Positions 10,711 through 60,319 of a stretch of DNA of 64,000 bases are shown here, piece after piece (within the stretch, counting starts at the first letter, position 1; every line of letters starts with the position of its first letter). The stretch lies in contig CALMJI010000018.1 of NCBI GenBank assembly GCA_937864235.1, positions 73,955 to 137,954 of the forward strand, given 5' to 3'. The DNA is from an uncultured bacterium. GTDB lineage: Bacteria > Patescibacteriota > Minisyncoccia > SW-4-49-11. Position numbers and translations under genes: made by a program. The notes below the pieces were generated by a model. The model did not search any database. It had not been told where the DNA came from and was given only the letters and a program-made list of their open reading frames with translations.

Positions 10711-10971
10711 GTCCTCCTTTGGAGGAGGTGGTACGGAGTACCGGAGGTGTATTGAGCTAAATTCCCCTCTTGAGGGGTGTATTTCTACTATATTTATATA
10801 GTAGAAATACGGGGTGGAATAAAATATGAAAAAAACAATCTACTCCCATACGACACAAATGTTATTTTCTACTGTCCTCCTCCATCACCTTACGGTGCCA
10901 CCTACCTCCTAAATAAATATAGGATGGACTTAAAGCTCCCCCCTGCCTACCGCAAGTAGGCAAGGGAGGAC
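10711..10971. repeat. GC-rich modular intergenic repeat (stem-loop modules CCTCCT-ttgg-AGGAGG, GGTAC-gga-GTACC, CCCCTC-tt-GAGGGG) enclosing a perfect 15-bp inverted repeat at 10779-10810
   Basis: GC-rich palindromic modules in an AT-rich intergenic region; the same modules recur at more than 15 loci in the window. Confidence 0.8.
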
Positions 10972-11052
10972 AATTTATTTATTTTTTTACAATACATCTC
11001 ATCTTTTTCAGGAAAAAACCCGACAAATAACTACTTAAAAGATATATACAAC

Positions 11053-12159
11053 TTATAACGATACCAAACACTTATCTAATGCCTCTATAATCACCTTTTT
11101 GTCCATATTAGCTCCAATAAAGACAATTTTTTGTTCCCCCTTGCTTTCTCCAGCTTTAGATTTACTCCAATATCCATACGGATCAAGGTTGATAATATTC
11201 CCCGCTTGAGACCATAACAAAGCTGTTGTAAGATCAGAGTTATCCCAAGCAAACCCTTTAGACCGCACCACTCCTTGCAATGTTCCATTTTGTAATAATT
11301 CCATCAACTTTTGTCTATCAAAAGGCTTTTTACTCTCATAGACAAAACTACTAATTCCATATTCCTCAGTCTCTGGAGTATGTTCTCCTCTCATTTCTTT
11401 GAGCCAACCTATATTTTGAGAGGCTTTATCAAAATCAAATAATCCCGTATTGAGAATTTTCTCAAGAGAAATATCCCCTTTGACAGCCTCAATAATACGA
11501 GCATCTGGATTGAGTTTAGCTACAATACCCCGAATAGTTCCCACAGTGTCTTTGGAAACCAAATCAACTTTAGACAATACAATTACATCAGCAAATTCAA
11601 TTTGATCCGTCAGAAGCCCCACAATAGTTCTGGTATCTTCTTCTCCCAGAGATTCATCCGTATCCTTCAGCTGATCCTCTGAGGCAAGATAATTCATAAA
11701 ATTAGCAGTATCCACAACCGTCACCATAGTGTCAAGACGAGCAAAATGAGACAGAATATCTCCCGATTCATCATCAAAAGTAAAGGTCTCAGCAATCGGC
11801 AATGGTTCAGAAATTCCCGTAGACTCAATCACCAGATAATCAAATTTATTCTCTAGAGCAAGTTTTTTGACCTCTATTAATAAATCCTCTCTTAGAGTAC
11901 AACAAATACATCCATTACTAAGCTCAACCAATTTTTCTTCTGTTTTACTCAGAGAAACATCATTATTCGCTATCAGCTCAGCATCAATATTCACCTCAGA
12001 CATATCATTTACAATCACCGCAACCTTAAGACCCTGCCTATTTTTAAGAATAGCATTAAGAATAGTGGTTTTTCCACTACCTAAGAATCCAGATAAAACT
12101 GTGACTGGTAAAAGTTTCTTTTGCTTATCTTGCATAATATTATCTAATTGACTTTTCAC
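11053..12159 (-). CDS. CobW/COG0523-family GTPase metallochaperone
   Basis: Walker A GFLGSGKTT, metal-binding GCICC motif and CobW C-terminal domain. Confidence 0.85.
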   Translation of the reverse strand: MKSQLDNIMQDKQKKLLPVTVLSGFLGSGKTTILNAILKNRQGLKVAVIVNDMSEVNIDAELIANNDVSLSKTEEKLVELSNGCICCTLREDLLIEVKKLALENKFDYLVIESTGISEPLPIAETFTFDDESGDILSHFARLDTMVTVVDTANFMNYLASEDQLKDTDESLGEEDTRTIVGLLTDQIEFADVIVLSKVDLVSKDTVGTIRGIVAKLNPDARIIEAVKGDISLEKILNTGLFDFDKASQNIGWLKEMRGEHTPETEEYGISSFVYESKKPFDRQKLMELLQNGTLQGVVRSKGFAWDNSDLTTALLWSQAGNIINLDPYGYWSKSKAGESKGEQKIVFIGANMDKKVIIEALDKCLVSL

Positions 12160-12193
12160 AGTATATCAAAAAATATATCTAAATGCAAATTAT

Positions 12194-12541
12194 TTGCAAT
12201 ATGATATAAAGAGTATACTTAATTATGCTATAATATTATTATCACCTAAATTTAATAATATGGCACATACAGATTCTAAAGACTTACAAGCCAAACTTGA
12301 GCCAACTCAATATAATATCGAGGTCGGAGCTTATTATCATCATTACAAAAATCCTCAAACTCATTATAAAGTACTCAATCTAGCCTTATCCGAATGGGAT
12401 GAAGAACCAGCAGTAGTGTACCAGAGTATGACAGATACCTTAATCTGGGTCAGAAGGATAAATGGTGAAAATGGTTGGAATACCCCCGTCACACTAGACA
12501 ATAGCCAAATTGTGAATAGATTTGAGAGGGTAGAGGGGTAA
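12194..12541 (+). CDS. DUF1653 domain protein
   Basis: GAYYHHYKNPQTHYKVLNLA...EPAVVYQSMTDTLIWVRRI matches the DUF1653 signature as recalled (GxYRHYKG...Y.V...A...E..VVY....W.RP). Confidence 0.55.
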   Translation: MQYDIKSILNYAIILLSPKFNNMAHTDSKDLQAKLEPTQYNIEVGAYYHHYKNPQTHYKVLNLALSEWDEEPAVVYQSMTDTLIWVRRINGENGWNTPVTLDNSQIVNRFERVEG

Positions 12542-12545
12542 GGGG

Positions 12546-13034
12546 TTATTTATTTTCTAATACAATGGTGTTAAAAATATAGTCACTAAGACTTCTACTA
12601 TTTTTACTCAACACAGTTACTCCTGAAATTATAATATATATTAAAAATAAGATAGGTCTTATAAAACATATAAATGTTAATAGGAATCTATAAGGCAACA
12701 ACCATTTATTAACCTCATTACCATTTTTATGTAGCACCTTTAAACCTAATAAATTTCTACCCAATGTATTTCCTGAAAATGAGTATGGGAAACCAGAGTA
12801 TATCAATATAGATGCAAATAAAGTATAATCAAATAATTTTGGAGTGTAACTTTCTTTTAATCCATTTTCAAATAAATCTAAAAACAAATTCTCTAGAAAT
12901 TTAATATCTGTAAACCTAACTAATAATGCCAGAAAAATTAGTAATATAGCAGTTAATACTAGTATGAAAAATATATCTAGTAATATAGCAATGGATCTTT
13001 TCCAAGCAGAGGCTAATTTATTATTCATATACAT
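12546..13034 (-). CDS. RDD-family membrane protein
   Basis: WKRSIAILLDIFFILVL and GRNLLGLKVL motifs; 3 TM helices. Confidence 0.5.
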   Translation of the reverse strand: MYMNNKLASAWKRSIAILLDIFFILVLTAILLIFLALLVRFTDIKFLENLFLDLFENGLKESYTPKLFDYTLFASILIYSGFPYSFSGNTLGRNLLGLKVLHKNGNEVNKWLLPYRFLLTFICFIRPILFLIYIIISGVTVLSKNSRSLSDYIFNTIVLENK

Positions 13035-13146
13035 TAAATTAATTATTATATTCTTATTCTACTATTTATGTTATAGTTTGTCTACGATGCATCTCATCTT
13101 ATTCACTATATTTTTCATCCTTTTCACTACATCTTTCAAGAAACCA

Positions 13147-19279: not shown

Positions 19280-19480
19280 TTGTCTCCTTTATTTTGTCTC
19301 CCTCCATATTTCGTAGGGGCGACCTTTCAGTCGCCTGTGTTTTTTCTAAAATTCCCCTATTGAGGGCTTTAAGTCCCTCCTATATTTATTTAGGAGGGGG
19401 TGGCACGGAGTGCCGGGGGTGGACTGTATTTGTATTTCTGTCCTCCCTTGGGGGAGGTGCCCGCAGGGCGGAGGAGGACA
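19280..19480. repeat. GC-rich modular intergenic repeat (modules GGCGAC-loop-GTCGCC, CCCCT-a-ttGAGGG, GGCAC-gga-GTGCC, CCTCCC-ttgg-GGGAGG)
   Basis: Same module family as the other loci. Confidence 0.8.
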
Positions 19481-19485
19481 TTCCA

Positions 19486-19854
19486 TTACAATCTATCCCT
19501 CACTATATCTTCAAGAATTATCATAACTCCATTTATAGACTTTAGAACTTCTTCATCAGTAAATCTAATTACCATAAAACCTAAATTCTCTAAATATTTT
19601 TGTCTAATAATGTCATTATCATAAATCTCTGGATGATTATGACTTTCTCCATCTACTTCTATAATTATTTTTAATTCTAGACATACAAAATCTACAATAT
19701 ATCTACCAACCGGTCTTTGTCTTCTAAAAATAACACCTAGTTTTTTACTCTTTAGACCATATTTCCATAAACAAGCTTCAGCTTTGGTCATAGAAGATCT
19801 TAATTTGTAAGCAACTGGTTTTAATCTTTTATTATAACTATTATTTTCTTTCAT
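19486..19854 (-). CDS. DUF559 endonuclease-domain protein (Vsr-like fold)
   Basis: RYIVDFVCLELKIIIEVDGESH...KYLENLGFMVIRF DUF559 signature. Confidence 0.8.
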   Translation of the reverse strand: MKENNSYNKRLKPVAYKLRSSMTKAEACLWKYGLKSKKLGVIFRRQRPVGRYIVDFVCLELKIIIEVDGESHNHPEIYDNDIIRQKYLENLGFMVIRFTDEEVLKSINGVMIILEDIVRDRL

Positions 19855-19907
19855 ATCGAGGGGTATATAATATATCTATATACTTTAGTACTGTCCTCCT
19901 CCGTCAC

Positions 19908-22283
19908 CTACCTCCTCACAACAAATTTCCCAATATTCCAAAGCCCCGCCCCAACTGCAGCACCAAACAATCCATAAAAAATCCAATCAGCTACCAGCAC
20001 AGCCCAAGGTTTATGATAACCAAACTCACATTCCGAATTAGCAGGTAAAATAGAGGCTTGGATTAGCCCATCTTTCTCTGAATTAGACTCCACTATCTTG
20101 TCCCCATTACAAGTCCACTGGAATTGAGGTGAATAAATCTCCGCTACTCGAACTTTTTGCTTCTCAGCTCCAGTCTTCACAATAGGATTATAAGAAAATT
20201 CCTGAGTAATCCCCTCTCCTGAGATATAAGCCTTCACATCTTTTACTTCATAAATACTATACCCCTCTACAGTAGAAGTAATTCTATTCAAACCATCTCT
20301 TTTTTGTAATAAATAGCAACTAATAAGATTCTTGTCATTTTCTAATCTATCTTCGCAATAATCATCATAACCACTAAATACAATATATTTAACATTATAA
20401 TCTCTCAAAATTTTAGTCCAATCTTGAGCTGAATAATTCATCAAAACTTTATCAAATTCATTAAAATACCTCTGCCCTTCCGACATCACCCGAGTATGAT
20501 TCCAAGAGCCATCATCATCACGAGTCAAATCTAGAATCCTATATTCCATATTCGGATTTAGCTCATCTAGAATTTTTTTAGCTCGCTCTACCCCTTCCAT
20601 ATGATAATCCATCGACGGAATAGTACGAAAAGTATACATCTGCCCCGCCTGATACCTAACCGAGATCAGTACCAGAATCAAAGCCACAGCCCCAGCAAAG
20701 GCCGAACTCAATTTCCAAGCTCTAGACTTAAATTCATTCGCACTATAATACCAAATCACCCCTCCCAACACACTCACTCCCAGAGCAAATATCATCATAA
20801 ATCTACCTGGGGTTCTAAGTCCCCAAAAATAAGGAAAATACTCATTCAAAACTCTATACAACCAAGAATTGCTATAACCAAGAGCCAGATACCCAGCCAA
20901 TCCAGAGCCAAGCCAAAGAGCTAAAATATATTTATTCCTCTTCAACCAGAAAATCCCTCCCACAGCTAAAGAAACCCAAAACAGCCAAATCAGACGATTA
21001 TCCAAAGGCACCGACCGCAAATCATAACCAATTTCCTCAGATACAATCCCCTCTTTATTCTGTAAATAAAATAATTCCTCAAAAGTCGGAGAATAGTAAT
21101 CCTTCACAAAAGGCACAATTCTCTCTTCAGTCTGAGAGTCATCTAGAATTCCATCAGCCTGACGATAACCAAAGAAAGTAGGGACCAAAACATGCAAGCC
21201 CATCAGCCCCACCACCATCCAAACCGCTCCAAACAAAATCCCCCTGCGTAACAATTCCCTCTTGGATTCAATATTCACCAAAGCCATCCCAAGCATAATC
21301 ACCAGAAGTGGCAAAACATTAGTAAATACCAAAGTAATCCCTGACACCAAAGTTGCAAAAGCTACCAAAACCCCCAAGACAATAATTCTAAGAACATTCT
21401 CCCACCATTTCACTTCATTCCTATGAAGAATTCGCAGCCAAGCCAAGACAATCCAAGGGAGAAGACTATAAGCCACCCCGAACTCTATCACCCCACTCAA
21501 AACCGACAAAAAGAAAGGGTTTAGAGCATAGACTAAAGCCACCAAAATCTGCCCAGATATACCAGCAATTCTATTTTCTAATTTTGGCATAATAGCCCTA
21601 TACAAAACAATAGCCCCAATACCTGCAATAACAATACTATTGAATTGATGAATTTTAATCCCTAAGTACAAATCCCCAGCAATCCAACTCAAAAACTCTG
21701 TATCCAAAACCGCCCAATTACTAGTCAAGATATTCCAAGCCCGCCCAAACTGATAAAACCAACCCGAGCTAAACTGCTCCCAGACATCCGACAAAACCAC
21801 CATACCCCCCATATCCAAAAAGCTATTATGAGGAATCTCAGACTTTACAAAATACCTACCAGAAACCAATACTAAACCAGCTAAACCAAATCCAGCAATC
21901 CACATCCAATCTTTAATTTTAGACACCCATCTCACAACCCAAGACATAATCCCATCCAAAAAATTCTCCAACCAAGGCCAAGACAATTTATGATTACTCC
22001 AGATTTCACTAAAGACCATAATACACAACAGATAATACACATTCACCGCAAAAGCCTCAGCCAACTCGTCCAATTTTAGAGACAAAGCAATTGGAGTCAA
22101 AGTCAAAAGCCCCAAAGCCACATACCCAGCCGGACGATTATCTATCCGAAACAAAATCACCCCAGCCACATAAGCCCATAGTAAAGCCCCCCACACCTCA
22201 CCAAAAGACCAAAATAACAAAACAAATACCACCCCAACCACAGCAAGCCTCAACCAATCTAACCCCGAAATCTTAGATTTCAT
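19908..22283 (-). CDS. large polytopic membrane protein (YfhO/PMT-like putative glycosyltransferase or polymerase)
   Basis: 791 aa, more than 12 TM helices in the N-terminal 520 aa plus a soluble C-terminal domain; 3' end overlaps a short GC repeat module. Confidence 0.45.
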   Translation of the reverse strand: MKSKISGLDWLRLAVVGVVFVLLFWSFGEVWGALLWAYVAGVILFRIDNRPAGYVALGLLTLTPIALSLKLDELAEAFAVNVYYLLCIMVFSEIWSNHKLSWPWLENFLDGIMSWVVRWVSKIKDWMWIAGFGLAGLVLVSGRYFVKSEIPHNSFLDMGGMVVLSDVWEQFSSGWFYQFGRAWNILTSNWAVLDTEFLSWIAGDLYLGIKIHQFNSIVIAGIGAIVLYRAIMPKLENRIAGISGQILVALVYALNPFFLSVLSGVIEFGVAYSLLPWIVLAWLRILHRNEVKWWENVLRIIVLGVLVAFATLVSGITLVFTNVLPLLVIMLGMALVNIESKRELLRRGILFGAVWMVVGLMGLHVLVPTFFGYRQADGILDDSQTEERIVPFVKDYYSPTFEELFYLQNKEGIVSEEIGYDLRSVPLDNRLIWLFWVSLAVGGIFWLKRNKYILALWLGSGLAGYLALGYSNSWLYRVLNEYFPYFWGLRTPGRFMMIFALGVSVLGGVIWYYSANEFKSRAWKLSSAFAGAVALILVLISVRYQAGQMYTFRTIPSMDYHMEGVERAKKILDELNPNMEYRILDLTRDDDGSWNHTRVMSEGQRYFNEFDKVLMNYSAQDWTKILRDYNVKYIVFSGYDDYCEDRLENDKNLISCYLLQKRDGLNRITSTVEGYSIYEVKDVKAYISGEGITQEFSYNPIVKTGAEKQKVRVAEIYSPQFQWTCNGDKIVESNSEKDGLIQASILPANSECEFGYHKPWAVLVADWIFYGLFGAAVGAGLWNIGKFVVRR

Positions 22284-24338: not shown

Positions 24339-24611
24339 AAATTCCCCTCTCGAGAGATAGCAGGCTTTGCCTGACGGGGTGGAGTATTTCTGTACTTCAC
24401 CTTTCTGTCTCCCTTTGGAGGGAGTACCCGTAATAGACTGAAAGTCTGGGAAAGGGGTCGGGAAAACGGCAGTTTTCCCGTGGAGGAAGGCTGGGAAACC
24501 GTGAGGTTTCACAAGAGCAAATCTCATTTGCGACGGGGGAGGGTGGATAAAACACAAACTAAAACTCTATCCACCTCCGGCACTCTGTGCCACCTCCTCC
24601 AAAGGAGGACA
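24339..24611. repeat. GC-rich modular intergenic repeat (includes GCAAATctcATTTGC hairpin module)
   Basis: Shares modules with 25248-25492, 37190-37300 (inverted) and 60200-60290. Confidence 0.8.
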
Positions 24612-24736
24612 ATTACTATCCAATTTACTGTTATTAGTCTAGTAATGTATATAATCCCTTTTGTCGACGATTACCTCATCTCGCACATAAACTTGACAAA
24701 ATATTAAGTTTAAGTTAATATTGAGATACAAATTGC

Positions 24737-24780
24737 CACTCGGCACGACCCTTATTAGGAATATTTCCCGATAAGGGGTT
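24737..24780 (+). terminator. rho-independent terminator (plus-strand orientation) abutting the 3' end of the mazF-like gene
   Basis: CCCTTAT...ATAAGGGG hairpin followed by TTATTTTTTTAT. Confidence 0.45.
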
Positions 24781-25186
24781 ATTTTTTTATAAATATATCT
24801 AAAAAGGCCTGCTTCACTATATCAAAATCCTGAGGAGACATAATACCTTTTCTATAATGTAATCGTTTAGCATCTAAAACTCTCATCTGAGATATTAATG
24901 CTGAATATTGCTTCCCTTTATATATGAACGGAATATAAAATTGATTATTTGGTTTTATTTTAGTACTGGTTGGAATAGCAAAAAATAGTTTTTGATTAAA
25001 TTTGTGCAACACAATAACTGGTCTATGGAAATTAGAATTTCTTCCACTCATTTCAAAACCCACATTCTCACCTAAATAACTCATCCAAATTTCTCTTTCT
25101 CTAAAAGCTGGCAATTTAGCAGATGATATATCTATTTTCTCTTTTAATCCAATCCACTCCTGAAATCTTTTTATAAACTTTTGCAT
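24779..25186 (-). CDS. MazF/PemK-family endoribonuclease toxin-like protein (copy 1)
   Basis: REIWMSYLGENVGFEMSGRNSNFHRPVIVL...AIPTSTKIK...ISQMRVLDAKRL matches the MazF/Kid/EndoA fold signature. Confidence 0.65.
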   Translation of the reverse strand: MQKFIKRFQEWIGLKEKIDISSAKLPAFREREIWMSYLGENVGFEMSGRNSNFHRPVIVLHKFNQKLFFAIPTSTKIKPNNQFYIPFIYKGKQYSALISQMRVLDAKRLHYRKGIMSPQDFDIVKQAFLDIFIKK

Positions 25187-25250
25187 ATTATATTTTTGAT
25201 TATTATTTACCTAGTATATACCCAAAACTTTATTAAAGCAAAAGTTTCTG
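25187..25250 (-). promoter_or_regulatory. conserved promoter/5' leader module (TTGCTT-17-TATACT ... TATAAT-ATG) shared by three toxin genes
   Basis: About 60 nt nearly identical at 25187-25250, 25983-26045 and 28833-28895, continuing into the first codons ATGCAAAAgTTT. Confidence 0.55.
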
Positions 25251-25492
25251 TCCACACCCACCGCTATGCGGCCCACTCGCCGGCGAGGGACAGTTTTTTG
25301 GGGGGCTCGGCGGTAACTTTGTCCTCCCTTCGGAGGGAGTACCCGTAGGGTGAGGGTGGATGGGCTATTTTTGTCCTCCCTTGGGGGAGGTGGCCGTCAG
25401 GCCGGAGGAGGACAGGAGCAAATCTCATTTGCGACGACGGAGTGAGGACTTGCTCACTGCCCTTTTACGATAAAAGGCATACCCAAGATAGT
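25248..25492. repeat. GC-rich modular intergenic repeat
   Basis: Modules CTCCCT-tcgg-AGGGAG, GCAAATctcATTTGC and CCTTTTAcgaTAAAAGG-catacccaagatag. Confidence 0.8.
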
Positions 25493-25583
25493 AAATCTAA
25501 ACTTGACAATCAATACTATATATTGTAATATAGTTACATATTTGGGATTGTCCCACGTACCTCTCCTCGGAGAGGACTATTTT

Positions 25584-25982
25584 TTATCTATAGAGATTAG
25601 AAAATCCCTTTTTTATATCAAAAAAGTCCTTATTATCTAAATCACCCATATAGGTTGTTAGTCTTCTAAAATCTATTGTCCTTGCTTGAGCTAAATTTAC
25701 AACTTGGGCTCTGCCCCGATGAGTAAATGAAACATACCAAGAGCCCTCTTTTATTTTTGTAGAACAAGGTAAGACCATAAACTGATATCTACTTAGTTTT
25801 TTCAAAATTACAACTGGTCTAGTAAAACTATCGTTTTTACCACTAACCTCAGTACCTATGTTTTCTCCCACACTACACCACCAAATCTGCCCCTCCTTAG
25901 TAAAGGGAGGTTTGCTATTAGATTGATCTAATTTAGGCTTTATAGCTAACCACTCCTGAAATCTTTTTATAAACTTTTGCAT
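25584..25982 (-). CDS. MazF/PemK-family endoribonuclease toxin-like protein (copy 2, paralog)
   Basis: Identical first 11 aa (MQKFIKRFQEW) to copy 1; GQIWWCSVGENIGTEVSGKNDSFTRPVVIL...LPCSTKIK...AQARTIDFRRL. Confidence 0.65.
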   Translation of the reverse strand: MQKFIKRFQEWLAIKPKLDQSNSKPPFTKEGQIWWCSVGENIGTEVSGKNDSFTRPVVILKKLSRYQFMVLPCSTKIKEGSWYVSFTHRGRAQVVNLAQARTIDFRRLTTYMGDLDNKDFFDIKKGFSNLYR

Positions 25983-26045
25983 ATTATATTTTTGATTCTT
26001 ATCTATCTAGTATATCCTAAATATTTTAGTAAAGCAAAAGCTTCT
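25983..26045 (-). promoter_or_regulatory. conserved promoter/5' leader module (copy 2)
   Basis: See 25187-25250. Confidence 0.55.
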
Positions 26046-26192
26046 GTCCTTCGCCCTTTTGTCCCCCTTCGGAGGGGGTGCCTGCAAGGTGGGGGTGGCT
26101 TGTATTCTGACCCTCACTGCCCTTCTGTCCCTCGCTTTTTAATCCGCCTTGGGAGGAAGCGAGGGTGGCACGGAGTGCCGGGTGTGGACTGT
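26044..26192. repeat. GC-rich modular intergenic repeat
   Basis: CCCCCT-tcgg-AGGGGG, aatccgccttgggaggaagcgaggg and GGCAC-gga-GTGCC modules. Confidence 0.8.
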
Positions 26193-26220
26193 ATTTTTCT
26201 TTCCTATCTACAAACCTAAT

Positions 26221-27291: not shown

Positions 27292-27374
27292 ATAAAATAA
27301 TTAAATCATTAATTCAATCTAATTGTATCATAAATGATACAATTAAGCAATTGCAGTGATATAATTAAATATCG

Positions 27375-27680
27375 TCATCTCCACCCTTCGTAGGGGCGAC
27401 CTCTCAGTCGCCTGTATTTTGTACTAAATTCCCCTCTCCTCCCAAGGCGGATTTCATTGAGGGGTGGACAGCTTCGCTGGACGGGGTGGAGTGTATTTTT
27501 GTCCCCCTTTGGAGGGGGTACCTGCAAGGTGGGGGTGGATTGTATTCTGCCCCTCACTGCCCTTTTGTCCCTCGTTTTTTAATCCGCCTTGGGAGGAGGC
27601 GAGGGTGGCACGGAGTGCCGGGTGTGGACTGAGCTTCCCTCCCCTTTTACGATAAAAGGCATACCCAAGATAGTAAATCT
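27375..27680. repeat. GC-rich modular intergenic repeat (largest mosaic copy)
   Basis: Contains nearly all modules seen elsewhere, including a nested insertion of the aatccgccttgggaggag module inside the CCCCTC...GAGGGG hairpin. Confidence 0.85.
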
Positions 27681-27810
27681 AATTTTGACAAAATCAAACA
27701 ATAGAGTTATTATTATTATATATTCGGCATTAGCCGCGACCCTCTTGAAATATAGAGGGGTTATAAATAGGTAGACTAAGAGATCCTGGGCTACCTATTT
27801 TATATTATAA

Positions 27811-27990
27811 CTACTTACCCTCTGATTTAGCTTGTTTTTCCTTCATCATCTGCTCATATTTTCTAAGCATACGATTCTGATCCTCTGAAGATTGTTCAAC
27901 AGCTTTATATACAGCTCTTCTTTGGTTCTCCTCACTAAATAGTTCCATTAGGTATTCTCTATTCCTTTGCTCTTCTTTTACCTTGTCCAT
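27811..27990 (-). CDS. small charged helical protein downstream of the zeta-like gene (possible antitoxin or partner)
   Basis: 59-aa ORF (MDKVKEEQRNREYLMELFSEENQRRAVYKAVEQ...) translated by me and absent from the supplied track; start lies 21 nt after the zeta-like stop; analogous to the small ORF at 37417-37623. Confidence 0.3.
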   Translation of the reverse strand: MDKVKEEQRNREYLMELFSEENQRRAVYKAVEQSSEDQNRMLRKYEQMMKEKQAKSEGK

Positions 27991-28010
27991 ACTTGTTATA
28001 TTAATTATAC

Positions 28011-28832: not shown

Positions 28833-28895
28833 ATTATATTTTTGATTCTTATCTATCTAGTATATCCTAAATATTTTAGTAAAGCAAAAACTCCT
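28833..28895 (-). promoter_or_regulatory. conserved promoter/5' leader module (copy 3, on the zeta-like gene)
   Basis: See 25187-25250. Confidence 0.55.
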
Positions 28896-29150
28896 GTCCT
28901 AAAATTCCCCTCTTTTGGCAATCCGCCTACCTACGGCAGGTAAACCTTGGGAGGAGAGGGGTGGACAGCTTCGCTGGACGGGGTGGAGTATTTTATACTT
29001 TTCTCTTGCCCTTCTGTCCCCCTTTGCCTGCCTGCGGTAGGCAGGGAGGGGGTGCCTGCAAGGTGGGGGTGGATGTTCTCTTTCTGTTCCCCAGTGGACT
29101 ACCCCTTCCCTCCCCTTTTACGATAAAAAGAATACCCAAGATAGCCATTG
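28893..29150. repeat. GC-rich modular intergenic repeat
   Basis: Modules shared with 27375-27680. Confidence 0.8.
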
Positions 29151-29153
29151 AAA

Positions 29154-36816: not shown

Positions 36817-36917
36817 ATATTTTTAGGGTTATTGTTTTATTATAGCATGGGTTGGGGTGTGTGTGAATTATAAATGGTGAATTATGAGTTTGTAGGGGCT
36901 AAAATGCAAAAGCAAAA

Positions 36918-37390
36918 CTCAATCCACCCCGTCCAGCGTAGCTGTCCACCCCTCGAGAGGGGAATTAGCTCAGTCCTACTCCGGCCTATCGGCCACCTCC
37001 CCCGAGGGAGGACAAGAGGGCAAGTTGCAAAGTACATCCACCCTCCCCCTTCGGGGACTCCCTCCTAAGGGAGACAGAAGCTCTGAAGGCCAGAAATCCA
37101 ATATTCAAAATACACTCCACCCCGTCCAGCATAGCTGTCCACCCCTCAAGAGGGGAATTTAGCTCAGGCTGCAAAATACGGTCCTCCTCCGCCGTCGCAA
37201 ATGGGATTTGCTCCTGTGAAACCTCTCGGTTTCCCAACCTTCCTCAACGGGAAAACTTCTGTTTTCCCAACCCCTTTCCCAGACTTTCAGTCTACTTCGT
37301 GCCACCTCCCCCAAGGGAGGACAAGAGGGCAAGTTGCAAAGTATCAAATACAGGCGACTGAGAGGTCGCCCCTACGAGATGGGAGGGTAG
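36918..37390. repeat. GC-rich modular intergenic repeat (about 470 bp, two tandem composite copies)
   Basis: Module set similar to 38420-38645; contains an inverted copy of the GCAAAT..ATTTGC / gtttcccaaccttcctc module seen at 24430-24540. Confidence 0.8.
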
Positions 37391-37416
37391 AAATTTTATA
37401 ATTAAAGCTTATTATA

Positions 37417-38419: not shown

Positions 38420-38645
38420 AAAACTCAATCCACCCCGTCAGTCAAACCTACCACCCCTCGAGAGGGGAATTTAGCTCAAGTCCTCCTCCGTCACCTACGG
38501 TGACACCTCCCCCAAGGGAGGACAGAAAATAGAAGTCCAGAAACACATCCACCCTCCCCCTTCGGGGACTCCCTACAAAGGGAGACAAAAGCTCAGTCCA
38601 CACCCGTCGACTTCCTCGCTACCCTCGCCAGCGAGGGACAGAAAA
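38420..38645. repeat. GC-rich modular intergenic repeat
   Basis: Shares more than 100 nt with 36918-37140. Confidence 0.8.
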
Positions 38646-38659
38646 CATTCACAAATTAA

Positions 38660-41273: not shown

Positions 41274-41279
41274 ATTAAT

Positions 41280-42458: not shown

Positions 42459-42558
42459 AGATTAAATATATAGCTTATACATAATAATTATATATGTTAT
42501 TGTACAAATTTGTCAAACTATGATATAATTAAATCATAATTAAAAATAATATACAAAT

Positions 42559-43284: not shown

Positions 43285-43289
43285 ATACT

Positions 43290-45989: not shown

Positions 45990-46100
45990 AATACTGTCCT
46001 ACCTTGGGGGAGGACAGAAATAAACTGCCCCTCGCTTTGTAATCCGCCTTGTGAGGAGGCGAGGGTGGACCACGTCAGTGGGTGGGTGTGGACAGTTTTG
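45990..46100. repeat. GC-rich modular intergenic repeat
   Basis: CCTACC-ttgg-GGGAGG and aatccgccttgtgaggaggcgaggg modules. Confidence 0.75.
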
Positions 46101-46179
46101 GACTATGTACTAATAATAACTTTTACATCTAAAAAGAGAGATAATATCCCTCTTTTTATCTGGACTTTAGAATATAAGA

Positions 46180-48272: not shown

Positions 48273-48369
48273 ATCTGTATTCTCTTATTGATATATTATA
48301 TTTTGTATTTTTATTATAGCATAGAAAGAAAAATTTTTGAATGGGTTGTATGGTGTTTTTAAATTTCCC

Positions 48370-48750
48370 TGTCCTCCTCCGTCACTTTACGGTGCCACCT
48401 CCCCCAAGGGAGGACAGTAATTTTGTCCCTCGCCGGCGAGGGTGGCACGGAGCGCCGGGTGTGGACTTGTCTTTGATAGGTATTTTTTATCCACCCTCCC
48501 ACTACGGGTACGCCCTCCCTGCCTACCGCAGGCAGGCAAAAGGAGACAAAAAGCAGAGTTCAGGCGACTGAAAGGTCGCCCCTACGAGGACAGAATATAC
48601 TATTTAACTCTATCCACCTCCGGCCTAAAGGCAACCTCCTCCTAAGGAGGACACGATCTCCAATGCAGGACAATCCACCCCGTCAATAAAAGATTTCCAC
48701 CCCTCAATGAAATCCGCCTTGGGCGGAGAGGGGAATTTTAATATAGCCCC
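48370..48750. repeat. GC-rich modular intergenic repeat
   Basis: Modules shared with 19280-19480 and 10872-10971 (ctgcctaccgcaggcaggc, GGCAC-gga-GCGCC). Confidence 0.8.
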
Positions 48751-50180: not shown

Positions 50181-51011
50181 ATGATTGGTTTCCGTGCACA
50201 CAATGGTTTTGCCCGCCTTAAAATGTATAATGGTATTATGGGTGCCTTGCACTTCTTTCAAGCTGGTTTGATGCTATATGTATCTAAAGAAGCTTTATTC
50301 CCTGTAACGACTAATTACCTTGACTTTGATTCTGCTACTCGTAGTGCAGCTCCTGTTACAGAGAAGTTTTTTGATATAAATCTTGGTCCAGCAGTAGCTT
50401 TGTTTTTGTTATTATCTGCTATTGCCCACTTTATTACAATATTACCGAATGTTTATCCTTGGTATATCAAGAATCTTAAAAATCATATCAATGTCATCCG
50501 ATGGTATGAATATGCTCTATCTTCTTCTGTGATGATTGTACTTATTTCTATTTTAGTAGGAATTTATGACTTCTCTACTCTATTATTGTTATTTGGAATC
50601 AATGCTAGCATGAACTTGTTTGGGCTAATAATGGAGCAGATTAATCAGGATCGTAAAGATGTTAATTGGCTTCCTTACATCTTTGGATGTATTGCTGGGA
50701 TTATACCTTGGATTGTAATTTTCCTACATTTCCAAGGAGCTATTTCATCCGCTGAGGTGGAAGTTCCTACTTTTGTCTACTTTATTGTATTCTCTCTATT
50801 CGCGGTATTCAATGTATTTGCACTTAATATGTTCTTACAGTATAAGAAAATTGGTCCTTGGAAATCTTATGTATTCGGAGAAAAATTCTATATTTTCTTA
50901 TCCCTATTTGCTAAGTCTCTCTTAGCTTGGCAAGTGTGGTCAGGGACTCTAAGAGGTACTGAGAATGAAGTATCTGCTATTATCTCTAATATATTTAGTA
51001 TATTTTCATAA
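50181..51011 (+). CDS. heliorhodopsin (7TM retinal protein, inverted topology)
   Basis: Blocks as I recall them from heliorhodopsin 48C12: RLKMYNGIMGALHFFQ (N-terminal), IRWYEYALSSSVMIVLI, FGINASMNLFG, FGCIAGIIPW, and retinal-Lys block LFAKSLLAWQVWSGTL in TM7. Confidence 0.75.
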   Translation: MIGFRAHNGFARLKMYNGIMGALHFFQAGLMLYVSKEALFPVTTNYLDFDSATRSAAPVTEKFFDINLGPAVALFLLLSAIAHFITILPNVYPWYIKNLKNHINVIRWYEYALSSSVMIVLISILVGIYDFSTLLLLFGINASMNLFGLIMEQINQDRKDVNWLPYIFGCIAGIIPWIVIFLHFQGAISSAEVEVPTFVYFIVFSLFAVFNVFALNMFLQYKKIGPWKSYVFGEKFYIFLSLFAKSLLAWQVWSGTLRGTENEVSAIISNIFSIFS

Positions 51012-55561: not shown

Positions 55562-55650
55562 TTCCTCGCCAATTTTTCCGTAGGGGCGACCTCTCAGTCG
55601 CCTGTGTTTTCGTAGAGGAGAGTGACTTCCCTCAACACACCCCAATTATT
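55562..55650. repeat. GC-rich repeat module (GGCGAC-ctctca-GTCGCC type)
   Basis: Same module as 27387-27410, 19313-19335, 37355-37378 and 56430-56455. Confidence 0.75.
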
Positions 55651-56338: not shown

Positions 56339-56359
56339 TTCATCATCTACCCCCACCAA

Positions 56360-56393
56360 CCCCTCGTCTCCAGACGAGGGGTTTTTCTTTTTT
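56360..56393 (+). terminator. rho-independent terminator
   Basis: CCCCTCGTCTccaGACGAGGGG hairpin followed by TTTTTCTTTTTT. Confidence 0.75.
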
Positions 56394-56429
56394 ATAAAAT
56401 ATATTTTTTGTTTCAAAACACAAACACTA

Positions 56430-56562
56430 CGGGCGACTGAGAGGTCGCCCCTACGAAGCACAAAATACATCCACCCCCGCCTTTCAGGCTTCCCCCTCCG
56501 AAGGGGGACAAAAAATCAACCACTCCACTACAAAATAAATGTCGGCGAGGTCGCCGACTCTA
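56430..56562. repeat. GC-rich modular intergenic repeat
   Basis: gggcgactgagaggtcgccc and GTCGGCGAggTCGCCGAC hairpins. Confidence 0.75.
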
Positions 56563-56570
56563 CACAAGAT

Positions 56571-57860: not shown

Positions 57861-57872
57861 ATTGTATAATAA

Positions 57873-58900: not shown

Positions 58901-58937
58901 AAAATAATTTTGATTATATATTTTTTGTACTGTGATT

Positions 58938-59060
58938 CTGTCCTCCTTCGGAGGAGGTGGCACGGAGTGCCGGAGGTGGATAGAGTTTGAGTTTGTATTT
59001 TATCCACCCTCCCTCCTAAGGGGGACAAAAAGCAGAATAAAGGCGACTGAAATATCCCAC
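58938..59060. repeat. GC-rich modular intergenic repeat
   Basis: CCTCCT-tcgg-AGGAGG, GGCAC-gga-GTGCC and aggcgactgaaa modules. Confidence 0.75.
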
Positions 59061-59135
59061 TAAAAAATATTTGCTATAAAATAAATTTATGCTATACTCA
59101 AAATAAGTTAAGTATAAAAATATGGAATTAAATAA

Positions 59136-59651
59136 ATGGACTTTTTGGGGACTGTTACTGGTATATTGTTTTGTTTCTTTTTATTTATATTTATATACCT
59201 CTGGTGGATGGCGTGCCTTTTACTTATTCATCATAATAAGCATATTTTACTCTATAATTTTAGGAACTACATTAATAACAAATATTTCTATATCATATAT
59301 AAAAAAGACTTGAAGCTAAAAATATCATGGTTATTTTTAGCTATACTACTAATCGTACTTATAAGTCAAACTATTCTACTAATTAATAGTGTTGGAGACT
59401 GTGGGGATGGAGATGGATCGTATAGGTTTTATGAAAGATTAATCGGTACGAATGGTTCGGAATACTGTAATACAGGTAAAAAAGCAGCGCCTCCTTTAAA
59501 TTTTGGAATATTAAATAGCATAGGTCTTTATTCTAATTTTTTAGCATTAACTATACTTATTATTCAAGTTTACTATAGAGCTGTTATAATAATTATCAAA
59601 AGCATTCCTAATACTATTAATAATATACTAAATTATATTTTTAAGATCTAG
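59136..59651 (+). CDS. hypothetical small membrane/secreted Cys-containing protein
   Basis: ORF frame 59136-59651; a shorter product from TTG near 59293 (MKLKISWLFLAILLIVLISQ, signal-peptide-like) is possible. Confidence 0.3.
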   Translation: MDFLGTVTGILFCFFLFIFIYLWWMACLLLIHHNKHILLYNFRNYINNKYFYIIYKKDLKLKISWLFLAILLIVLISQTILLINSVGDCGDGDGSYRFYERLIGTNGSEYCNTGKKAAPPLNFGILNSIGLYSNFLALTILIIQVYYRAVIIIIKSIPNTINNILNYIFKI

Positions 59652-59738
59652 AGACTATATAGACACCCCATTCCCCAACATATATTGACTAAATTGATTT
59701 TATTATGTAAAATAAACAAGTACCTTAGAAAACTTAAT

Positions 59739-60141
59739 TCCGCGATAGCTCAGCGGTAGAGCAGTCGGCTGTGAATGCCTTCTTGAGTCGTCGTAAAATA
59801 ATTATATTTTTATGTCTGACAAAAGAAAATATTCTGATCGTGCTGAATATCTTTTTTAGAAATTCACTCCGATCTAGTCGCAGCCTCTTCTGGTAACAGA
59901 AGTTGAAACACGAGGTGAATTGCTGGAAGCCTAAGGTAGTAATACTAAGGCAATCAGCAGCCAAGTCTAGCAAAACTAGAAAGGTTCAGAGACTATCCCA
60001 AAAGGGAGTACATTGTAGCAATACAGTGGAAGCGCCTCGCTCCATCAAAACGATGGATGATGATATAGTCCACGCCTATTAGAAATATTAGGACAAGGTG
60101 TAACCGATTGGTCGTAGGTTCGAATCCTACTCGCGGAGCCA
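59739..60141 (+). tRNA. tRNA-Asn (anticodon GUU) interrupted by an intron in the anticodon loop (exons 59739-59772 and 60101-60141, CCA encoded)
   Basis: Exons fold as a cloverleaf: acceptor TCCGCGA/TCGCGGA (U1-A72, discriminator G73 as in E. coli tRNA-Asn), D-arm GCTC-AGCGGTA-GAGC, anticodon stem GTCGG/CCGAT, spliced loop CTGT|TAA giving anticodon GTT, variable loop TGGTC, T-arm GTAGG-TTCGAAT-CCTAC. Confidence 0.7.
59773..60100 (+). ncRNA. group I (IC3-like) self-splicing intron inside tRNA-Asn
   Basis: 5' exon ends in U and the intron ends in G; IGS GCAGCC (59879-59884) complements exon GGCUGU; P2 hairpin TCTTCTGgtaaCAGAAG; core blocks GTGAATTGCTGGAAGCCTAAGG and GGCAATCAGCAGCCAAGTC resemble Azoarcus/Tetrahymena P3-P4 and J6/7; CAGAGACTA (P7 5') paired with TAGTC (60066-60070); P8 TCCCaaaaGGGA; P9 hairpin before omega-G. 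Confidence 0.6.
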
Positions 60142-60153
60142 AAATATAAAAGG

Positions 60154-60174
60154 GGAGATTTTGTCTCCTTTTTT
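60154..60174 (+). terminator. rho-independent terminator after tRNA-Asn
   Basis: GGAGAttttGTCTCC hairpin followed by T6; near-identical copy at 63438-63461. Confidence 0.65.
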
Positions 60175-60194
60175 ATATTTCTTGTCTTTTGAGA

Positions 60195-60319
60195 GAGTAG
60201 GATGAGAACCTGGGGAAGGGGTCGGGAAACGAGAGTTTCCAGTGGCGGAGGTATTGGAACCGAGGGGTTCCAAGGAGTGAATCCCATTCACGACTGGTTT
60301 GCAATCCTACTCGCGGAGC
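60195..60319. repeat. GC-rich repeat module followed by a partial direct copy of the tRNA-Asn 3' end (60295-60319)
   Basis: GGTTTGCAATCCTACTCGCGGAGCA versus tRNA GGTTCGAATCCTACTCGCGGAGCCA. Confidence 0.7.

What the first reader, a model, noticed from the sequence alone, without database searches (positions are those of the whole stretch)
10711..60296. Pervasive family of GC-rich, modular, hairpin-forming intergenic repeats in an AT-rich genome
At least 17 intergenic loci carry mosaics of the same GC-rich modules. The loci include 10711-10971, 19280-19480, 24339-24611, 25248-25492, 26044-26192, 27375-27680, 28893-29150, 36918-37390, 38420-38645, 45990-46100, 48370-48750, 55562-55650, 56430-56562, 58938-59060 and 60195-60296. 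The modules are: CCCCTC-tt-GAGGGG (often preceded by aaatt and followed by tggacagcttcgctggacggggtggagt); CCNCCN-ttgg/tcgg-NGGNGG; GGCAC-gga-GTGCC followed by gg(g/t)gtggactg; cgtaGGGGCGACctctcaGTCGCCtgt; GCAAAT-ctc-ATTTGC followed by gacgg; aatccgccttgggaggag(g)cgagggtgg; and cccttttacgataaaaggcatacccaagatag. Modules occur in both orientations, in different orders and nested within each other; for example the aatccgcc module is inserted inside the CCCCTC/GAGGGG hairpin at 27430-27470. They sit at 3' ends and between convergent or divergent genes, around housekeeping and toxin genes alike. This resembles REP/BIME, Correia, RUP or rickettsial RPE elements, but the sequences appear unrelated to those.
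Basis: seen in the sequence. Interest (0 to 1): 0.7.

Follow-up and report, generated by a model that had tools for sequence, protein, structure and literature searches.

The report
Modular hairpin/triplex repeats in Paceibacteria
The GC-rich intergenic repeats are real, and are a fast-evolving family of self-folding DNA repeats in one group of tiny freshwater bacteria, built from two kinds already known elsewhere (REP-type hairpins and BoxC-type triplex motifs), so they are a new variant rather than a new kind.

Summary
Confirmed. About 3.3 kb of the window (5%, roughly 37% of its non-coding DNA) is arrays of GC-rich modules. 96% of repeated bases are non-coding. Module counts are 6-18 against 0-0.2 in shuffles.

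The same stretch is identical in three independent assemblies. The modules recur in at least 8 Paceibacteria (CPR) species-level MAGs and are absent from 662 kb of distant control DNA.

There are two module kinds:
- GTAG-tagged palindromes, which are REP-type.
- "Head-cargo-tail" units: a pyrimidine/purine hairpin, a second hairpin or larger insert, and a purine tail ending GGAY.

The tail is the mirror image of the hairpin's purine strand, with A mirrored by A or T. This is the code of a class II purine-motif intrastrand triplex, as in E. coli BoxC/PIT/TM-ECO. The Rfam whalefall-1 seeds follow the same rule. Window units hit that model only below threshold (21.7 bits; gathering 37).

Orientation is random relative to genes. 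Arrays abut stop codons. Array content differs in every species at one orthologous locus downstream of HisRS.

Best reading: REP/BIME- and BoxC-like selfish or structural DNA repeats. No mobilising enzyme was found. This is a new variant of a known kind.

The parts
10709..10975 (.). Array: d-type unit (+) 10710-10752; M2 unit with an AT-rich cargo hairpin (+) 10760-10820; complex b-type unit with a nested hairpin (-) 10874-10972.
19294..19480 (+). Array: GTAG palindrome M1 19312-19335; M2-like head; unit 19373-19424; b-type unit 19439-19479. It abuts the stop codon of the DUF559 gene.
19893..19909 (+). Fragment identical to the tail-side half of a minus-sense b-type unit (same 17-mer as 38480-38496), at the 3' end of ORF 19908-22283.
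24340..24612 (.). Array between convergent genes: M2 (+) 24340-24385; a-type unit carrying the 110-nt three-hairpin M4 cargo (+) 24407-24548; d-type unit (-) 24569-24610, tail to tail with the a-type unit.
25246..25463 (+). Array: e-type unit (-) 25250-25292; a-like unit (+) 25321-25361; b-type unit (+) 25373-25413; partial M4 hairpin 25412-25448.
26043..26195 (+). Array: c-type unit 26061-26100; e-type unit with nested aatccgcc hairpin 26127-26189. It is a 95% duplicate of 27497-27631.
27372..27650 (+). Array: M1 27389-27412; M2 with nested insert 27427-27491; c-type unit 27501-27540; e-type unit with nested insert 27567-27629.
28903..29090 (+). Array: M2 with two levels of nested hairpins 28903-28989; c-type unit with nested hairpin 29015-29074.
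36915..37392 (-). Largest array: M2 36922-36966; b/d-like unit 36973-37014; a-type unit 37036-37075; M2 37115-37159; b-type unit with M4 cargo 37181-37322; M1 37353-37376.
38425..38647 (-). Array: M2 38428-38471; b-type unit 38480-38523; a-type unit 38547-38586; e-type unit 38596-38639.
45992..46103 (+). Array between convergent genes: simple head hairpin without cargo or tail 45995-46016; e-like unit with nested insert 46026-46093.
48367..48739 (.). Array: b (-) 48371-48415; e (+) 48425-48466; a with nested hairpin (-) 48489-48548; M1 (-) 48563-48586; d (-) 48612-48652; M2 with nested hairpin (-) 48673-48737.
55579..55602 (+). Solitary GTAG palindrome M1 in a divergent intergenic region.
56421..56569 (-). 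Array downstream of HisRS: GTAG palindrome variant 56541-56563; c-type unit 56469-56509; M1 56432-56455. This is the locus compared across species.
58934..59066 (.). Array: d-type unit (+) 58940-58981; cargo-less unit (-) 59002-59027, tail to tail with the d-type unit; degenerate M1 (-) 59038-59066.
60200..60294 (+). M4-like three-hairpin element without head or tail. It is closed by GAGTAGG/CCTACTC and followed by a copy of the 3' end of the neighbouring tRNA.

Best explanation
These are lineage-specific, multi-copy, non-coding DNA repeats of the REP/BIME and BoxC kind. They are not genes for a dedicated RNA.

Two sorts of self-folding module build the arrays:
1. GTAG-tagged palindromes (REP-type). 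Their TCGTAG tag stays constant while the stems differ.
2. Head-cargo-tail units. Each has a pyrimidine strand, a 4-nt loop and the complementary purine strand (hairpin 1). Next comes one T, then a second hairpin (usually with a G/A-N-A triloop) or a larger insert. Last is a purine tail ending in GGAY.

The tail is the mirror image of the purine strand of hairpin 1. On the single G-rich DNA strand it can therefore fold back into hairpin 1 as the third strand of an antiparallel purine-motif triplex (G.GC, A.AT, T.AT), with hairpin 2 acting as the connecting loop.

Inferred steps:
- The modules are copied as DNA, next to one another or into one another's loops, in either orientation. This probably happens while the DNA is single-stranded. 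A trans-acting enzyme is the likely agent (RAYT-like for the GTAG modules); recombination or template switching at stalled forks is the alternative.
- Selection removes copies from coding and promoter DNA. Arrays therefore pile up just after stop codons and turn over quickly.
For: Shown directly:
- Repeats are 96% non-coding. They lie 6-50 nt from the upstream stop codon but leave 60-130 nt before the next start.
- There is no strand preference relative to flanking tandem genes in 233 kb: heads 15 sense / 9 antisense, M1 11/10, M2 10/8.
- Inverted pairs occur, and the whalefall-1 seeds also come as inverted pairs.
- Nested inserts sit in hairpin loops, up to three levels deep. The same 110-nt cargo is found inside both a-type and b-type frames, and each time the tail matches its own head.
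- At the orthologous site downstream of HisRS the array differs in every species (HisRS 77-95% aa identity), and one species has an empty site. The array downstream of the epimerase gene also differs between the window and L023.
- Units are identical or 85-97% identical between species whose coding DNA is about 66-88% identical.
- Protein-anchored (unbiased) relatives carry 24 heads in 88 kb, against 0 in 662 kb of distant controls.
- GTAG is the commonest 4-mer 5' of GC-rich hairpins, and it tags at least 4 different stems.

Mirror rule:
- 36 of 40 anchored units fit at 5 of 6 positions or better.
- At the level of unit types the score is 46/48 for mirror and 19/48 for direct. Only 2 of 40320 permutations of tails among types reach 46.
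- Minimum-energy folds give two adjacent hairpins and a free purine tail.

Precedent: E. coli BoxC/PIT/TM-ECO has the same Y-R-R order and triad code. It is intergenic, occurs in both orientations and in inverted pairs, varies between strains, and forms a stable triplex as single-stranded DNA in vitro (PMC4666352).
Against: - No transposase or RAYT was found. Pfam scans of window ORFs were negative. No multi-copy gene is linked to the repeats. Whole genomes could not be searched.
- No target-site duplications or clean insertion junctions were identified.
- No insertion polymorphism exists among three near-clonal assemblies.
- High between-species identity could also reflect a strongly selected function.
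- Compensatory changes in hairpins fit an RNA as well as single-stranded DNA.
- Weinberg et al. rated whalefall-1 as certainly an RNA (PMC2864571).
- TM-ECO triplexes were not detected in vivo (PMC4666352).
- Only about 8 independent unit types underlie the mirror rule.
Confidence: 0.6

Rival explanations
1. The units are functional structured RNAs. They could be whalefall-1-type small RNAs, or cis-acting 3'-UTR elements that stop exonucleases or terminate transcription. On this view the repeats are many copies of a useful RNA domain.
For: - Sub-threshold hits to RF01762 fall exactly on the units, in the G-rich sense.
- Both hairpins show compensatory changes.
- The M4 cargo has GNRA-like loops and 4 covarying pairs.
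- Arrays sit at gene 3' ends.
- M1 in its own sense scores as terminator-like.
- The G-rich sense folds more stably than the C-rich sense (-136 vs -118 kcal/mol).
Against: - Orientation relative to flanking genes is random, so half the copies would be transcribed as the C-rich strand.
- The density of about 45 modules in 64 kb, the nested inserts and the turnover at orthologous loci do not look like RNA genes.
- The genome has ordinary intrinsic terminators elsewhere, at 56340-56385 and 60148-60175.
- The mirror rule uses T opposite A. That fits only the purine motif, which is reported not to form with RNA strands (PMC4666352, citing Semerad and Maher 1994).
- G.U and A.C mismatch counts in M4 are equal, 5 vs 4.
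- PIT elements showed no terminator or promoter activity in E. coli (PMC4666352).
Confidence: 0.2
2. The repeats are host-retained DNA structural sites. Examples would be binding sites for a nucleoid or topology protein, replication or recombination pause sites, or DNA-uptake signals. On this view they are kept because they are useful to the cell rather than because they spread.
For: - Unit sequences are strongly conserved between species.
- The invariant frame TGTCC...GGAY and the constant TCGTAG tag look like recognition sites.
- TM-ECO sites are linked to local genome variability (PMC4666352).
- E. coli BIMEs are known, from my own knowledge, to bind IHF and gyrase.
Against: - Array content is not conserved at orthologous loci, and one relative has none there.
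- A relative with 77% HisRS identity has no units in 7.4 kb.
- No regular spacing along the chromosome was seen.
- No candidate binding protein was identified.
Confidence: 0.1
3. The arrays next to the PemK, Fic and Zeta toxin genes are RNA antitoxins (type III, ToxI-like repeats) or integron-type cassette recombination sites (attC).
For: Five toxin genes at 24.7-29 kb and 37.6-38.3 kb lack obvious antitoxin partners, and each is flanked by arrays.
Against: - The same modules flank HisRS, cyclophilin, an epimerase, cobW and, in relatives, BipA.
- The arrays are mosaics, not uniform tandem repeats.
- Both orientations occur.
- No integrase is present in the window, and no GTTRRRY-type core sites were noticed.
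- The shared toxin upstream regions are explained by segmental duplication (D1 and D4).
Confidence: 0.03
4. The repeats are an assembly artefact (collapsed or chimeric reads).
For: None found.
Against: The arrays are identical in three independent assemblies. Related but different arrays occur in many MAGs and metagenome contigs.
Confidence: 0.01

Closest known systems
E. coli BoxC / PIT elements / TM-ECO (class II purine-motif intrastrand triplex repeats; Hoyne et al. 2000; Holder et al. 2015, PMC4666352)
   Same: - Same strand order: 5' pyrimidine stem, loop, purine stem, loop, purine stem.
- Same triad code (G.GC, A.AT, T.AT).
- GC-rich, intergenic, found in both orientations and often as inverted pairs.
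- No link to the function of neighbouring genes; variable between close relatives.
- One whalefall-1 seed (CCUCUCC / GGAGAGG / GGUGAGG) is nearly the TM-ECO core.
   Different: - Stems are 6 nt rather than 9, and the sequences differ.
- The second loop is itself a hairpin of 11-17 nt or a 110-nt insert, instead of 3 nt. The published finder (loops 1-6 nt) would therefore miss these units.
- The units carry a fixed frame (TGTCC...GGAY), form long mosaic arrays with REP-type modules, and sit in a 34% GC CPR genome.
GTAG-tagged REP elements and BIME mosaics (Di Nocera et al. 2013, PMC3733652)
   Same: - Module M1 and its variants are palindromes with 6-7 bp stems and an unpaired terminal GTAG.
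- They occur singly, as a head-head dimer, or grouped with other repeats.
- They lie mostly between unidirectional and convergent genes, downstream of coding regions.
- Loops can hold further self-complementary inserts.
   Different: - No RAYT gene was found.
- The phylum (Patescibacteria) is not among the 8 reported.
- M1 is a minority component here; most of the array is triplex-type units.
Whalefall-1 RNA motif (Rfam RF01762; Weinberg et al. 2010, PMC2864571)
   Same: [quoted passage not shown]
- AT-rich flanks and inverted pairs on the same contig.
- The seeds obey the same mirror rule.
   Different: - Window units score 14.5-21.7 bits against a gathering score of 37.
- Hairpin 2 is short with G/A-N-A triloops, not a 9-bp stem with a CUUG loop.
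- The motif was described as a non-coding RNA, whereas the evidence here points to a DNA-level repeat.
GC-rich hairpin elements of AT-rich organelle genomes (yeast mitochondrial GC clusters, PMC4478555; sponge repetitive hairpin-forming elements, PMC2800124)
   Same: Short GC-rich hairpin-forming repeats that invade the intergenic DNA of an AT-rich, compact genome and vary between close relatives. This rests on titles and abstracts only.
   Different: The sequences and hosts are unrelated, and no triplex-type mirror tail is described for them. This is an analogy, not a homology.

Membership tests
GTAG-tagged REP (PMC3733652) | Short palindrome, stem 6-13 bp, high copy number. | tested here: met
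   M1 is GGCGAC / 6-nt loop / GTCGCC. It has 6 copies in the window against 0 in shuffles, and 31 further copies in 24 loci from 8 MAGs.
GTAG-tagged REP (PMC3733652) | Unpaired GTAG motif at one end of the palindrome. | tested here: met
   The tag (T)CGTAG is present in all 6 window copies. The same tag precedes at least 4 different stems: GGCGAC, GTCGGCG, GGAGGG and CAGAGGG, and CGGGTC in L108.
GTAG-tagged REP (PMC3733652) | Extragenic, mainly between unidirectional or convergent genes, downstream of coding regions. | tested here: met
   96% of repeat bases are non-coding. Repeats occur in 9 of 17 tandem, 3-4 of 5 convergent and 2 of 7 divergent regions. The numbers are small.
GTAG-tagged REP (PMC3733652) | A cognate RAYT (Y1/HUH transposase) gene in the genome, flanked by the repeats. 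| tested here: inconclusive
Whole genomes were not searchable.
BoxC / PIT / TM-ECO intrastrand triplex motif (PMC4666352) | Three consecutive blocks, 5' Y - R - R 3' (class II), with the third block antiparallel to the second and GGC, AAT or TAT triads. | tested here: met
   36 of 40 anchored units fit at 5/6 or better. Type-level score is 46/48 for mirror against 19/48 for direct, and 2 of 40320 permutations reach 46. Perfect six-triad motifs number 13 in the 64-kb window, 31 in 249 kb of relatives and 5 in 662 kb of controls.
BoxC / PIT / TM-ECO intrastrand triplex motif (PMC4666352) | Formal ITxF criteria: stems 6-15 nt and both loops 1-6 nt. | tested here: not met
   Stems (6 nt) and loop 1 (4 nt) pass. 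Loop 2 is 12-18 nt (a hairpin) and reaches 114 nt with M4 cargo.
BoxC / PIT / TM-ECO intrastrand triplex motif (PMC4666352) | TM-ECO consensus CCCTCNCCC N3-6 GGGNGAGGG N3 GGGNGAGGG. | tested here: not met
   The unit sequences differ: CCTCCT, CCTCCC, CTCCCT, CCCCCT and CCCTCG heads.
BoxC / PIT / TM-ECO intrastrand triplex motif (PMC4666352) | Triplex formation by the isolated single strand (CD, NMR, melting). | not testable with these tools
   Nearest-neighbour folding shows only two hairpins and a free tail. It cannot model triplexes.
Whalefall-1 RNA (RF01762) | [quoted passage not shown] | tested here: met
Whalefall-1 RNA (RF01762) | Covariance-model score at or above the gathering score (37 bits). 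| tested here: not met
   The best scores are 21.7, 20.6, 19.0 and 14.5 bits.
Whalefall-1 RNA (RF01762) | Second hairpin with a 9-bp stem, often a CUUG tetraloop. | tested here: not met
   Hairpin 2 has 3-6 bp stems, and the loops are mostly G/A-N-A triloops.
Whalefall-1 RNA (RF01762) | Acts as an RNA. | not testable with these tools
   No expression data were available. Random orientation and the purine-motif code argue against an RNA role.
MITE | Terminal inverted repeats plus target-site duplication. | tested here: inconclusive
   The ends GTCC...GGAC are complementary over only 4 nt. No duplication was evident at the junctions compared.
Type III toxin-antitoxin RNA repeats | Uniform tandem direct repeats immediately upstream of the toxin gene only. 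| tested here: not met
   The arrays are mosaics, and the same modules sit next to housekeeping genes.

The most novel reading that the evidence does not exclude
The selected feature of these units, and of the orphan Rfam family whalefall-1, may be a fold of single-stranded DNA rather than an RNA. The fold would be a hairpin capped by its own mirror-image purine tail as a purine-motif triple helix, with a second hairpin or a whole structured insert carried as the connecting loop.

Three-way covariation (pyrimidine strand, purine strand, tail) across at least 8 unit types would then be natural evolutionary evidence that intrastrand triplexes form in vivo. They could act as the structure that an unknown enzyme recognises to copy the units. 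Alternatively they could act as fork-stalling sites that drive the rapid array turnover seen here.

On this reading whalefall-1 would have to be reclassified from RNA gene to DNA repeat.
Probability: 0.35. Interest if true: 0.75.

Novelty: new variant of a known kind. Interest (0 to 1): 0.55.

Why it matters
- CPR/Patescibacteria genomes are regarded as small and streamlined. Here about a third of the non-coding DNA is a fast-evolving repeat family that seems not to have been described: four full-text searches found nothing on such repeats in this phylum.
- The finding ties three separate literatures together: GTAG-REPs, BoxC/PIT intrastrand-triplex repeats, and the orphan whalefall-1 RNA motif.
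- It gives whalefall-1-like elements a likely taxonomic home and suggests they are DNA-level repeats.
- The head/tail covariation across unit types is comparative evidence that a triplex fold is under selection. For BoxC this has only been shown in vitro.
- On the practical side, the arrays are useful strain markers, a cause of assembly breaks in CPR MAGs, and a trap for screens that look for non-coding RNAs as GC-rich intergenic regions.

Tried and rejected
1. Alternative Watson-Crick pairing of the tail with the 5' strand (a switch or attenuator). The registers are inconsistent between types, and it fails for the e-type and for whalefall type II (my reading of alignment A2 and the seed alignment).
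2. The tail as a direct repeat or target-site duplication of the purine strand. This fits types a, c and d only if A-to-T changes are allowed, and fails for b, e, M2 and the whalefall seeds. The anchored score is 19/48 against 46/48 for the mirror model.
3. G-quadruplex. The G-tract patterns of types a and c do not fit.
4. Pyrimidine-motif triplex on the C-rich strand. It is excluded because T in the tail lies opposite A.T pairs.
5. A Shine-Dalgarno mimic that regulates downstream genes. Only about 4 of 53 start codons have any SD-like sequence, and orientation is random.
6. Orientation set by the direction of replication. Unit sense flips between 29 and 37 kb, but neighbouring arrays agree only 22:15 overall, and the GC skew follows gene strand.
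7. Linked mobilising genes. The DUF559 endonuclease sandwiched at 19486-19854 does not recur. The only multi-copy gene next to M1 resembled a formylglycine-generating-enzyme (sulfatase-modifying) type protein by eye and was not scanned. The gene flanked by inverted M1 copies in L018 is BipA.
8. M4 as a fragment of a group I intron. It has no similarity to the intron in this window and no Rfam hit.
9. Phage carriage. M1 is absent from viral contigs, and only two viral contigs hold a unit.
10. SNP enrichment in repeats. There is none; the strains are near-clonal.
11. Automated parsing of hairpin 2 shifted the tail register. It was replaced by anchoring on the terminal GGAY.

Full report
**Observation.** The window is 34% GC. 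Self-comparison finds 2622 repeated bases, and 2516 of them (96%) lie in the 13.7% of the window that is non-coding. Fifteen of 32 intergenic regions of 60 nt or more carry repeats. Adding up the arrays gives about 3.3 kb, which is 5% of the window and about 37% of its non-coding DNA.

Module counts far exceed dinucleotide shuffles:
- the GTAG palindrome, 6 vs 0
- GGTGGCACRGAGYGCCGG, 7 vs 0
- the head pattern TGTCYYCCYTNNGRGGRRG, 18 vs 0
- the tail GGRGGTGGAY, 8 vs 0.21

By hand curation the window holds about 29 head-cargo-tail units, 9 M2 units and 8 GTAG palindromes.

**Source and reality.** One window protein is encoded on 13 public contigs. Three independent assemblies match window 25893-46816 at 99.8-99.96% with no indels, and none of the mismatches falls in a repeat region. 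A species-representative genome scan for the GTAG palindrome returned 24 loci in 8 different MAGs. Most are labelled Paceibacteria or Parcubacteria, two are labelled Saccharibacteria, and several MAG names point to freshwater lakes. Those loci also carry the other modules at 85-97% identity, although shared coding DNA is only about 66-88% identical. A 44-nt b-type unit is identical in the window, L012 and L027.

An unbiased sample was anchored on HisRS rather than on repeats. It gave 24 heads in 88 kb for relatives with 82-95% HisRS identity (none in the one 77%-identity locus, L035), and none in 662 kb from distant organisms.

**Anatomy.** There are two module kinds.

(i) GTAG palindromes. 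M1 is TTCGTAG-G-GGCGAC-CTYTCA-GTCGCC-TGT. The same TCGTAG tag precedes other stems (GTCGGCG, GGAGGG, CAGAGGG, and CGGGTC in a viral contig), and GTAG is the most frequent 4-mer 5' of GC-rich hairpins. L026 has an inverted pair with the tags on the outside.

(ii) Head-cargo-tail units. The plan is TGT-[pyrimidine strand]-[4-nt loop]-[purine strand]-T-[hairpin 2 or insert]-[purine tail]-GGAY. The types are:

| Type | Pyrimidine strand / purine strand / tail |
|---|---|
| a | CTCCCT / AGGGAG / GAGGGT |
| b | CCTCCC / GGGAGG / GGAGGA |
| c | CCCCCT / AGGGGG / GGGGGT |
| d | CCTCCT / AGGAGG / GGAGGT |
| e | CCCTCG / CGAGGG / GGGTGT |
| M2 | AAATT-CCCCT / AGGGG / GGGGT-GGAGT |

- Hairpin 1 has three pairs with double compensatory changes.
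- Hairpin 2 has many different stems, and its loops are mostly G/A-N-A triloops.
- Hairpin 2 can be replaced by an AT-rich hairpin (10760-10820) or by a conserved 110-nt three-hairpin module, M4. M4 occurs inside both a-type and b-type frames, and each time the tail matches its own head.
- Hairpin-1 loops hold nested hairpins up to three levels deep (28903-28989).
- Minimum-energy folds of single units give two adjacent hairpins and a free 12-14 nt purine tail.

**The mirror rule.** The six bases before the terminal GGAY are the mirror image of the purine strand of hairpin 1. They are neither its copy nor its complement. A is mirrored by A or T.
- 36 of 40 anchored units fit at 5 of 6 positions or better.
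- In the frame of alignment A2, the covarying column pairs (27,47), (26,48), (25,49) and (23,51) all satisfy i + j = 74. That is the signature of an antiparallel interaction.
- The 16 whalefall-1 seeds fall into three types, and all obey the rule: GGGGAGA/AGAGGGA, GGAGGGA/AGGGUGA, and GGAGAGG/(G)GGUGAGG.
- At the level of 8 types the mirror model scores 46/48 and the direct-copy model 19/48. Only 2 of 40320 permutations of tails among types reach 46.
- A b-type head in viral contig L109 carries the exact mirror tail GGAGGG.

This is the code of an antiparallel purine-motif triplex (G.GC, A.AT, T.AT) in the class II order Y-R-R. T opposite A rules out the pyrimidine motif on the C-rich strand. 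Hairpin 2 brings the end of the purine strand next to the start of the tail, which is what the geometry needs (inference).

**Distribution and dynamics.** Arrays start 6-50 nt after the upstream stop codon and leave 60-130 nt before the next start. They are scarce between divergent genes. Orientation relative to flanking tandem genes is random (heads 15:9, M1 11:10, M2 10:8). Within arrays the orientation is mostly coherent (85:23, inflated because the head and tail of one unit are both counted). Between neighbouring arrays it is not (22:15).

At the orthologous site downstream of HisRS the content differs in every species:

| Sequence | Array content |
|---|---|
| window | GTAG hairpin + c + M1 |
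| L028 (95% aa) | an a-type unit in inverted orientation, and only a degenerate, 5'-truncated remnant of M1 |
| L031 | other units in place of c |
| L030 | M2(-) + e(-) + b(+) |
| L033 / L050 | decayed units |
| L035 (77%) | none |

The array downstream of the epimerase gene also differs between the window and L023, whose epimerase DNA is 88.6% identical. Part of the multiplicity at 25-29 kb is segmental duplication of toxin cassettes (D1 and D4).

**What it is.** The combination points to DNA-level repeats of the REP/BIME kind rather than RNA genes. The relevant features are extragenic location, random orientation, inverted pairs, nesting, mosaic arrays, rapid turnover and module sequences shared between species.
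- M1 meets the structural definition of GTAG-REPs, which are thought to be moved by RAYT transposases (PMC3733652).
- The head-cargo-tail units follow the strand order and triad code of E. coli BoxC/PIT/TM-ECO. Those elements are intergenic, occur in both orientations and in inverted pairs, vary between strains, form a very stable triplex as single-stranded DNA in vitro, and have not been shown to do so in vivo (PMC4666352).
- The units differ from TM-ECO in having shorter stems and a hairpin or larger insert as the second loop, so the published finder (loops 1-6 nt) would not list them.
- Rfam's whalefall-1 has the same plan, but window units reach only 14.5-21.7 bits against a gathering score of 37.
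- Purine-motif triplexes are reported not to form with RNA strands (PMC4666352). The mirror rule and the random orientation therefore together favour a single-stranded-DNA fold, for whalefall-1 as well. This step is inference.

**Mechanism (committed, partly inferred).**
- Shown: the units are self-folding, are copied between loci and between species, insert beside or inside one another, and survive only in dispensable DNA after stop codons.
- Inferred: copying happens on single-stranded DNA. A trans-acting HUH/RAYT-type enzyme that recognises the TCGTAG-hairpin and perhaps the triplex-capped units is the likely agent. Recombination or template switching at forks stalled by these structures is the alternative. 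The arrays have little or no sequence-specific benefit to the host.
- Not found: any transposase in the window or in 1.04 Mb of fetched DNA; target-site duplications; polymorphism among near-clonal strains.

**Rivals.** The main rival is an RNA function, either a whalefall-1-type sRNA or a 3'-UTR stabiliser (0.2). Compensatory pairs, GNRA-like loops in M4 and the 3'-end location support it. Random orientation, density, turnover and the triad code argue against it. Host-retained DNA sites (0.1), toxin-linked RNA antitoxins or attC sites (0.03), and artefact (0.01) are less likely, for the reasons given in their entries.

**Verdict.** The finding is a new variant of known kinds (GTAG-REP plus BoxC-type triplex repeats) in a phylum where I found no report of them. 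As a useful by-product it links and reinterprets the orphan whalefall-1 motif. Interest is moderate, 0.55.

Noticed in passing
window 59739-60141: A tRNA gene is split by a group I intron. The 5' half is at 59739-59770. The Rfam RF00028 hit covers 59794-60092 (86.5 bits). The 3' half, ending in CCA, is at 60104-60141, followed by a canonical terminator near 60148-60175. ARAGORN misses the gene. The anticodon is ambiguous: UGU if the 5' exon ends at U33, GUG if read straight through.
   Followed up: partly
window 60200-60320; L018:6075-6180; L011:770-880: M4-like three-hairpin elements without the head/tail frame sit just downstream of tRNA genes. Each is enclosed by a stem whose 3' arm copies the tRNA's own 3' end (CCTACTCGCGGAGC, CTGGTTTGTATCCCAGTCAGATCCA, TCCCCGCCA). 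They could be a tRNA-like small RNA or the remnant of a tRNA-targeted insertion. This is unexplained.
   Followed up: partly
window, upstream of 53 start codons: Almost no Shine-Dalgarno sequences: about 4 of 53 genes have a GGAG-like motif within 20 nt of the start. Translation initiation in this organism therefore looks largely SD-independent, even though its repeats are full of GGAGG.
   Followed up: partly
window 24693-29176: A toxin island holds PemK 24779-25186, PemK 25584-25982, Fic 26221-27291 and Zeta 28011-28832, with a further Zeta at 37620-38324. Three of the island toxins (PemK, PemK, Zeta) share a conserved 5' region (25125-25253, 25921-26049, 28771-28899). Near several of them is an AT-rich module (25461-25491, 27643-27673, near 29110); two copies are followed by TTGACA-17-TAnnAT promoter-like sites on the opposite strand (25503, 27685), with a similar site at 24693. 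At 25560-25575 a short terminator-like hairpin follows. These may be antisense or antitoxin small RNAs.
   Followed up: no
window 50181-51011; L036:6075-6908: A heliorhodopsin gene (Pfam E = 1e-95) is present and conserved in relatives. The window also starts with V/A-type ATPase B and D subunits (27-2029).
   Followed up: no
window 41178-43832: All 8-38 mismatches between the window and three other assemblies of the same organism cluster in this 2.7-kb stretch (the DUF8173 protein and ABC transporter genes). This suggests a recombination tract or a locus under diversifying selection.
   Followed up: no
window 19486-19854: A DUF559 (Vsr-like endonuclease) gene is sandwiched between a repeat array and a repeat fragment. 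It does not recur in related loci.
   Followed up: yes
L108:680-1190 and L109:5575-6095 (IMG/VR contigs): Two viral-classified contigs (48% and 43% GC) each carry a complete head-cargo-tail unit. L108 also has a TCGTAG-tagged hairpin with a different stem. The architecture therefore extends beyond this AT-rich clade.
   Followed up: partly
L028-L030, upstream of HisRS (e.g. L029:3122-4597): A large serine recombinase gene is present in three relatives but absent at the corresponding place in the window. It is probably an integrated element.
   Followed up: no
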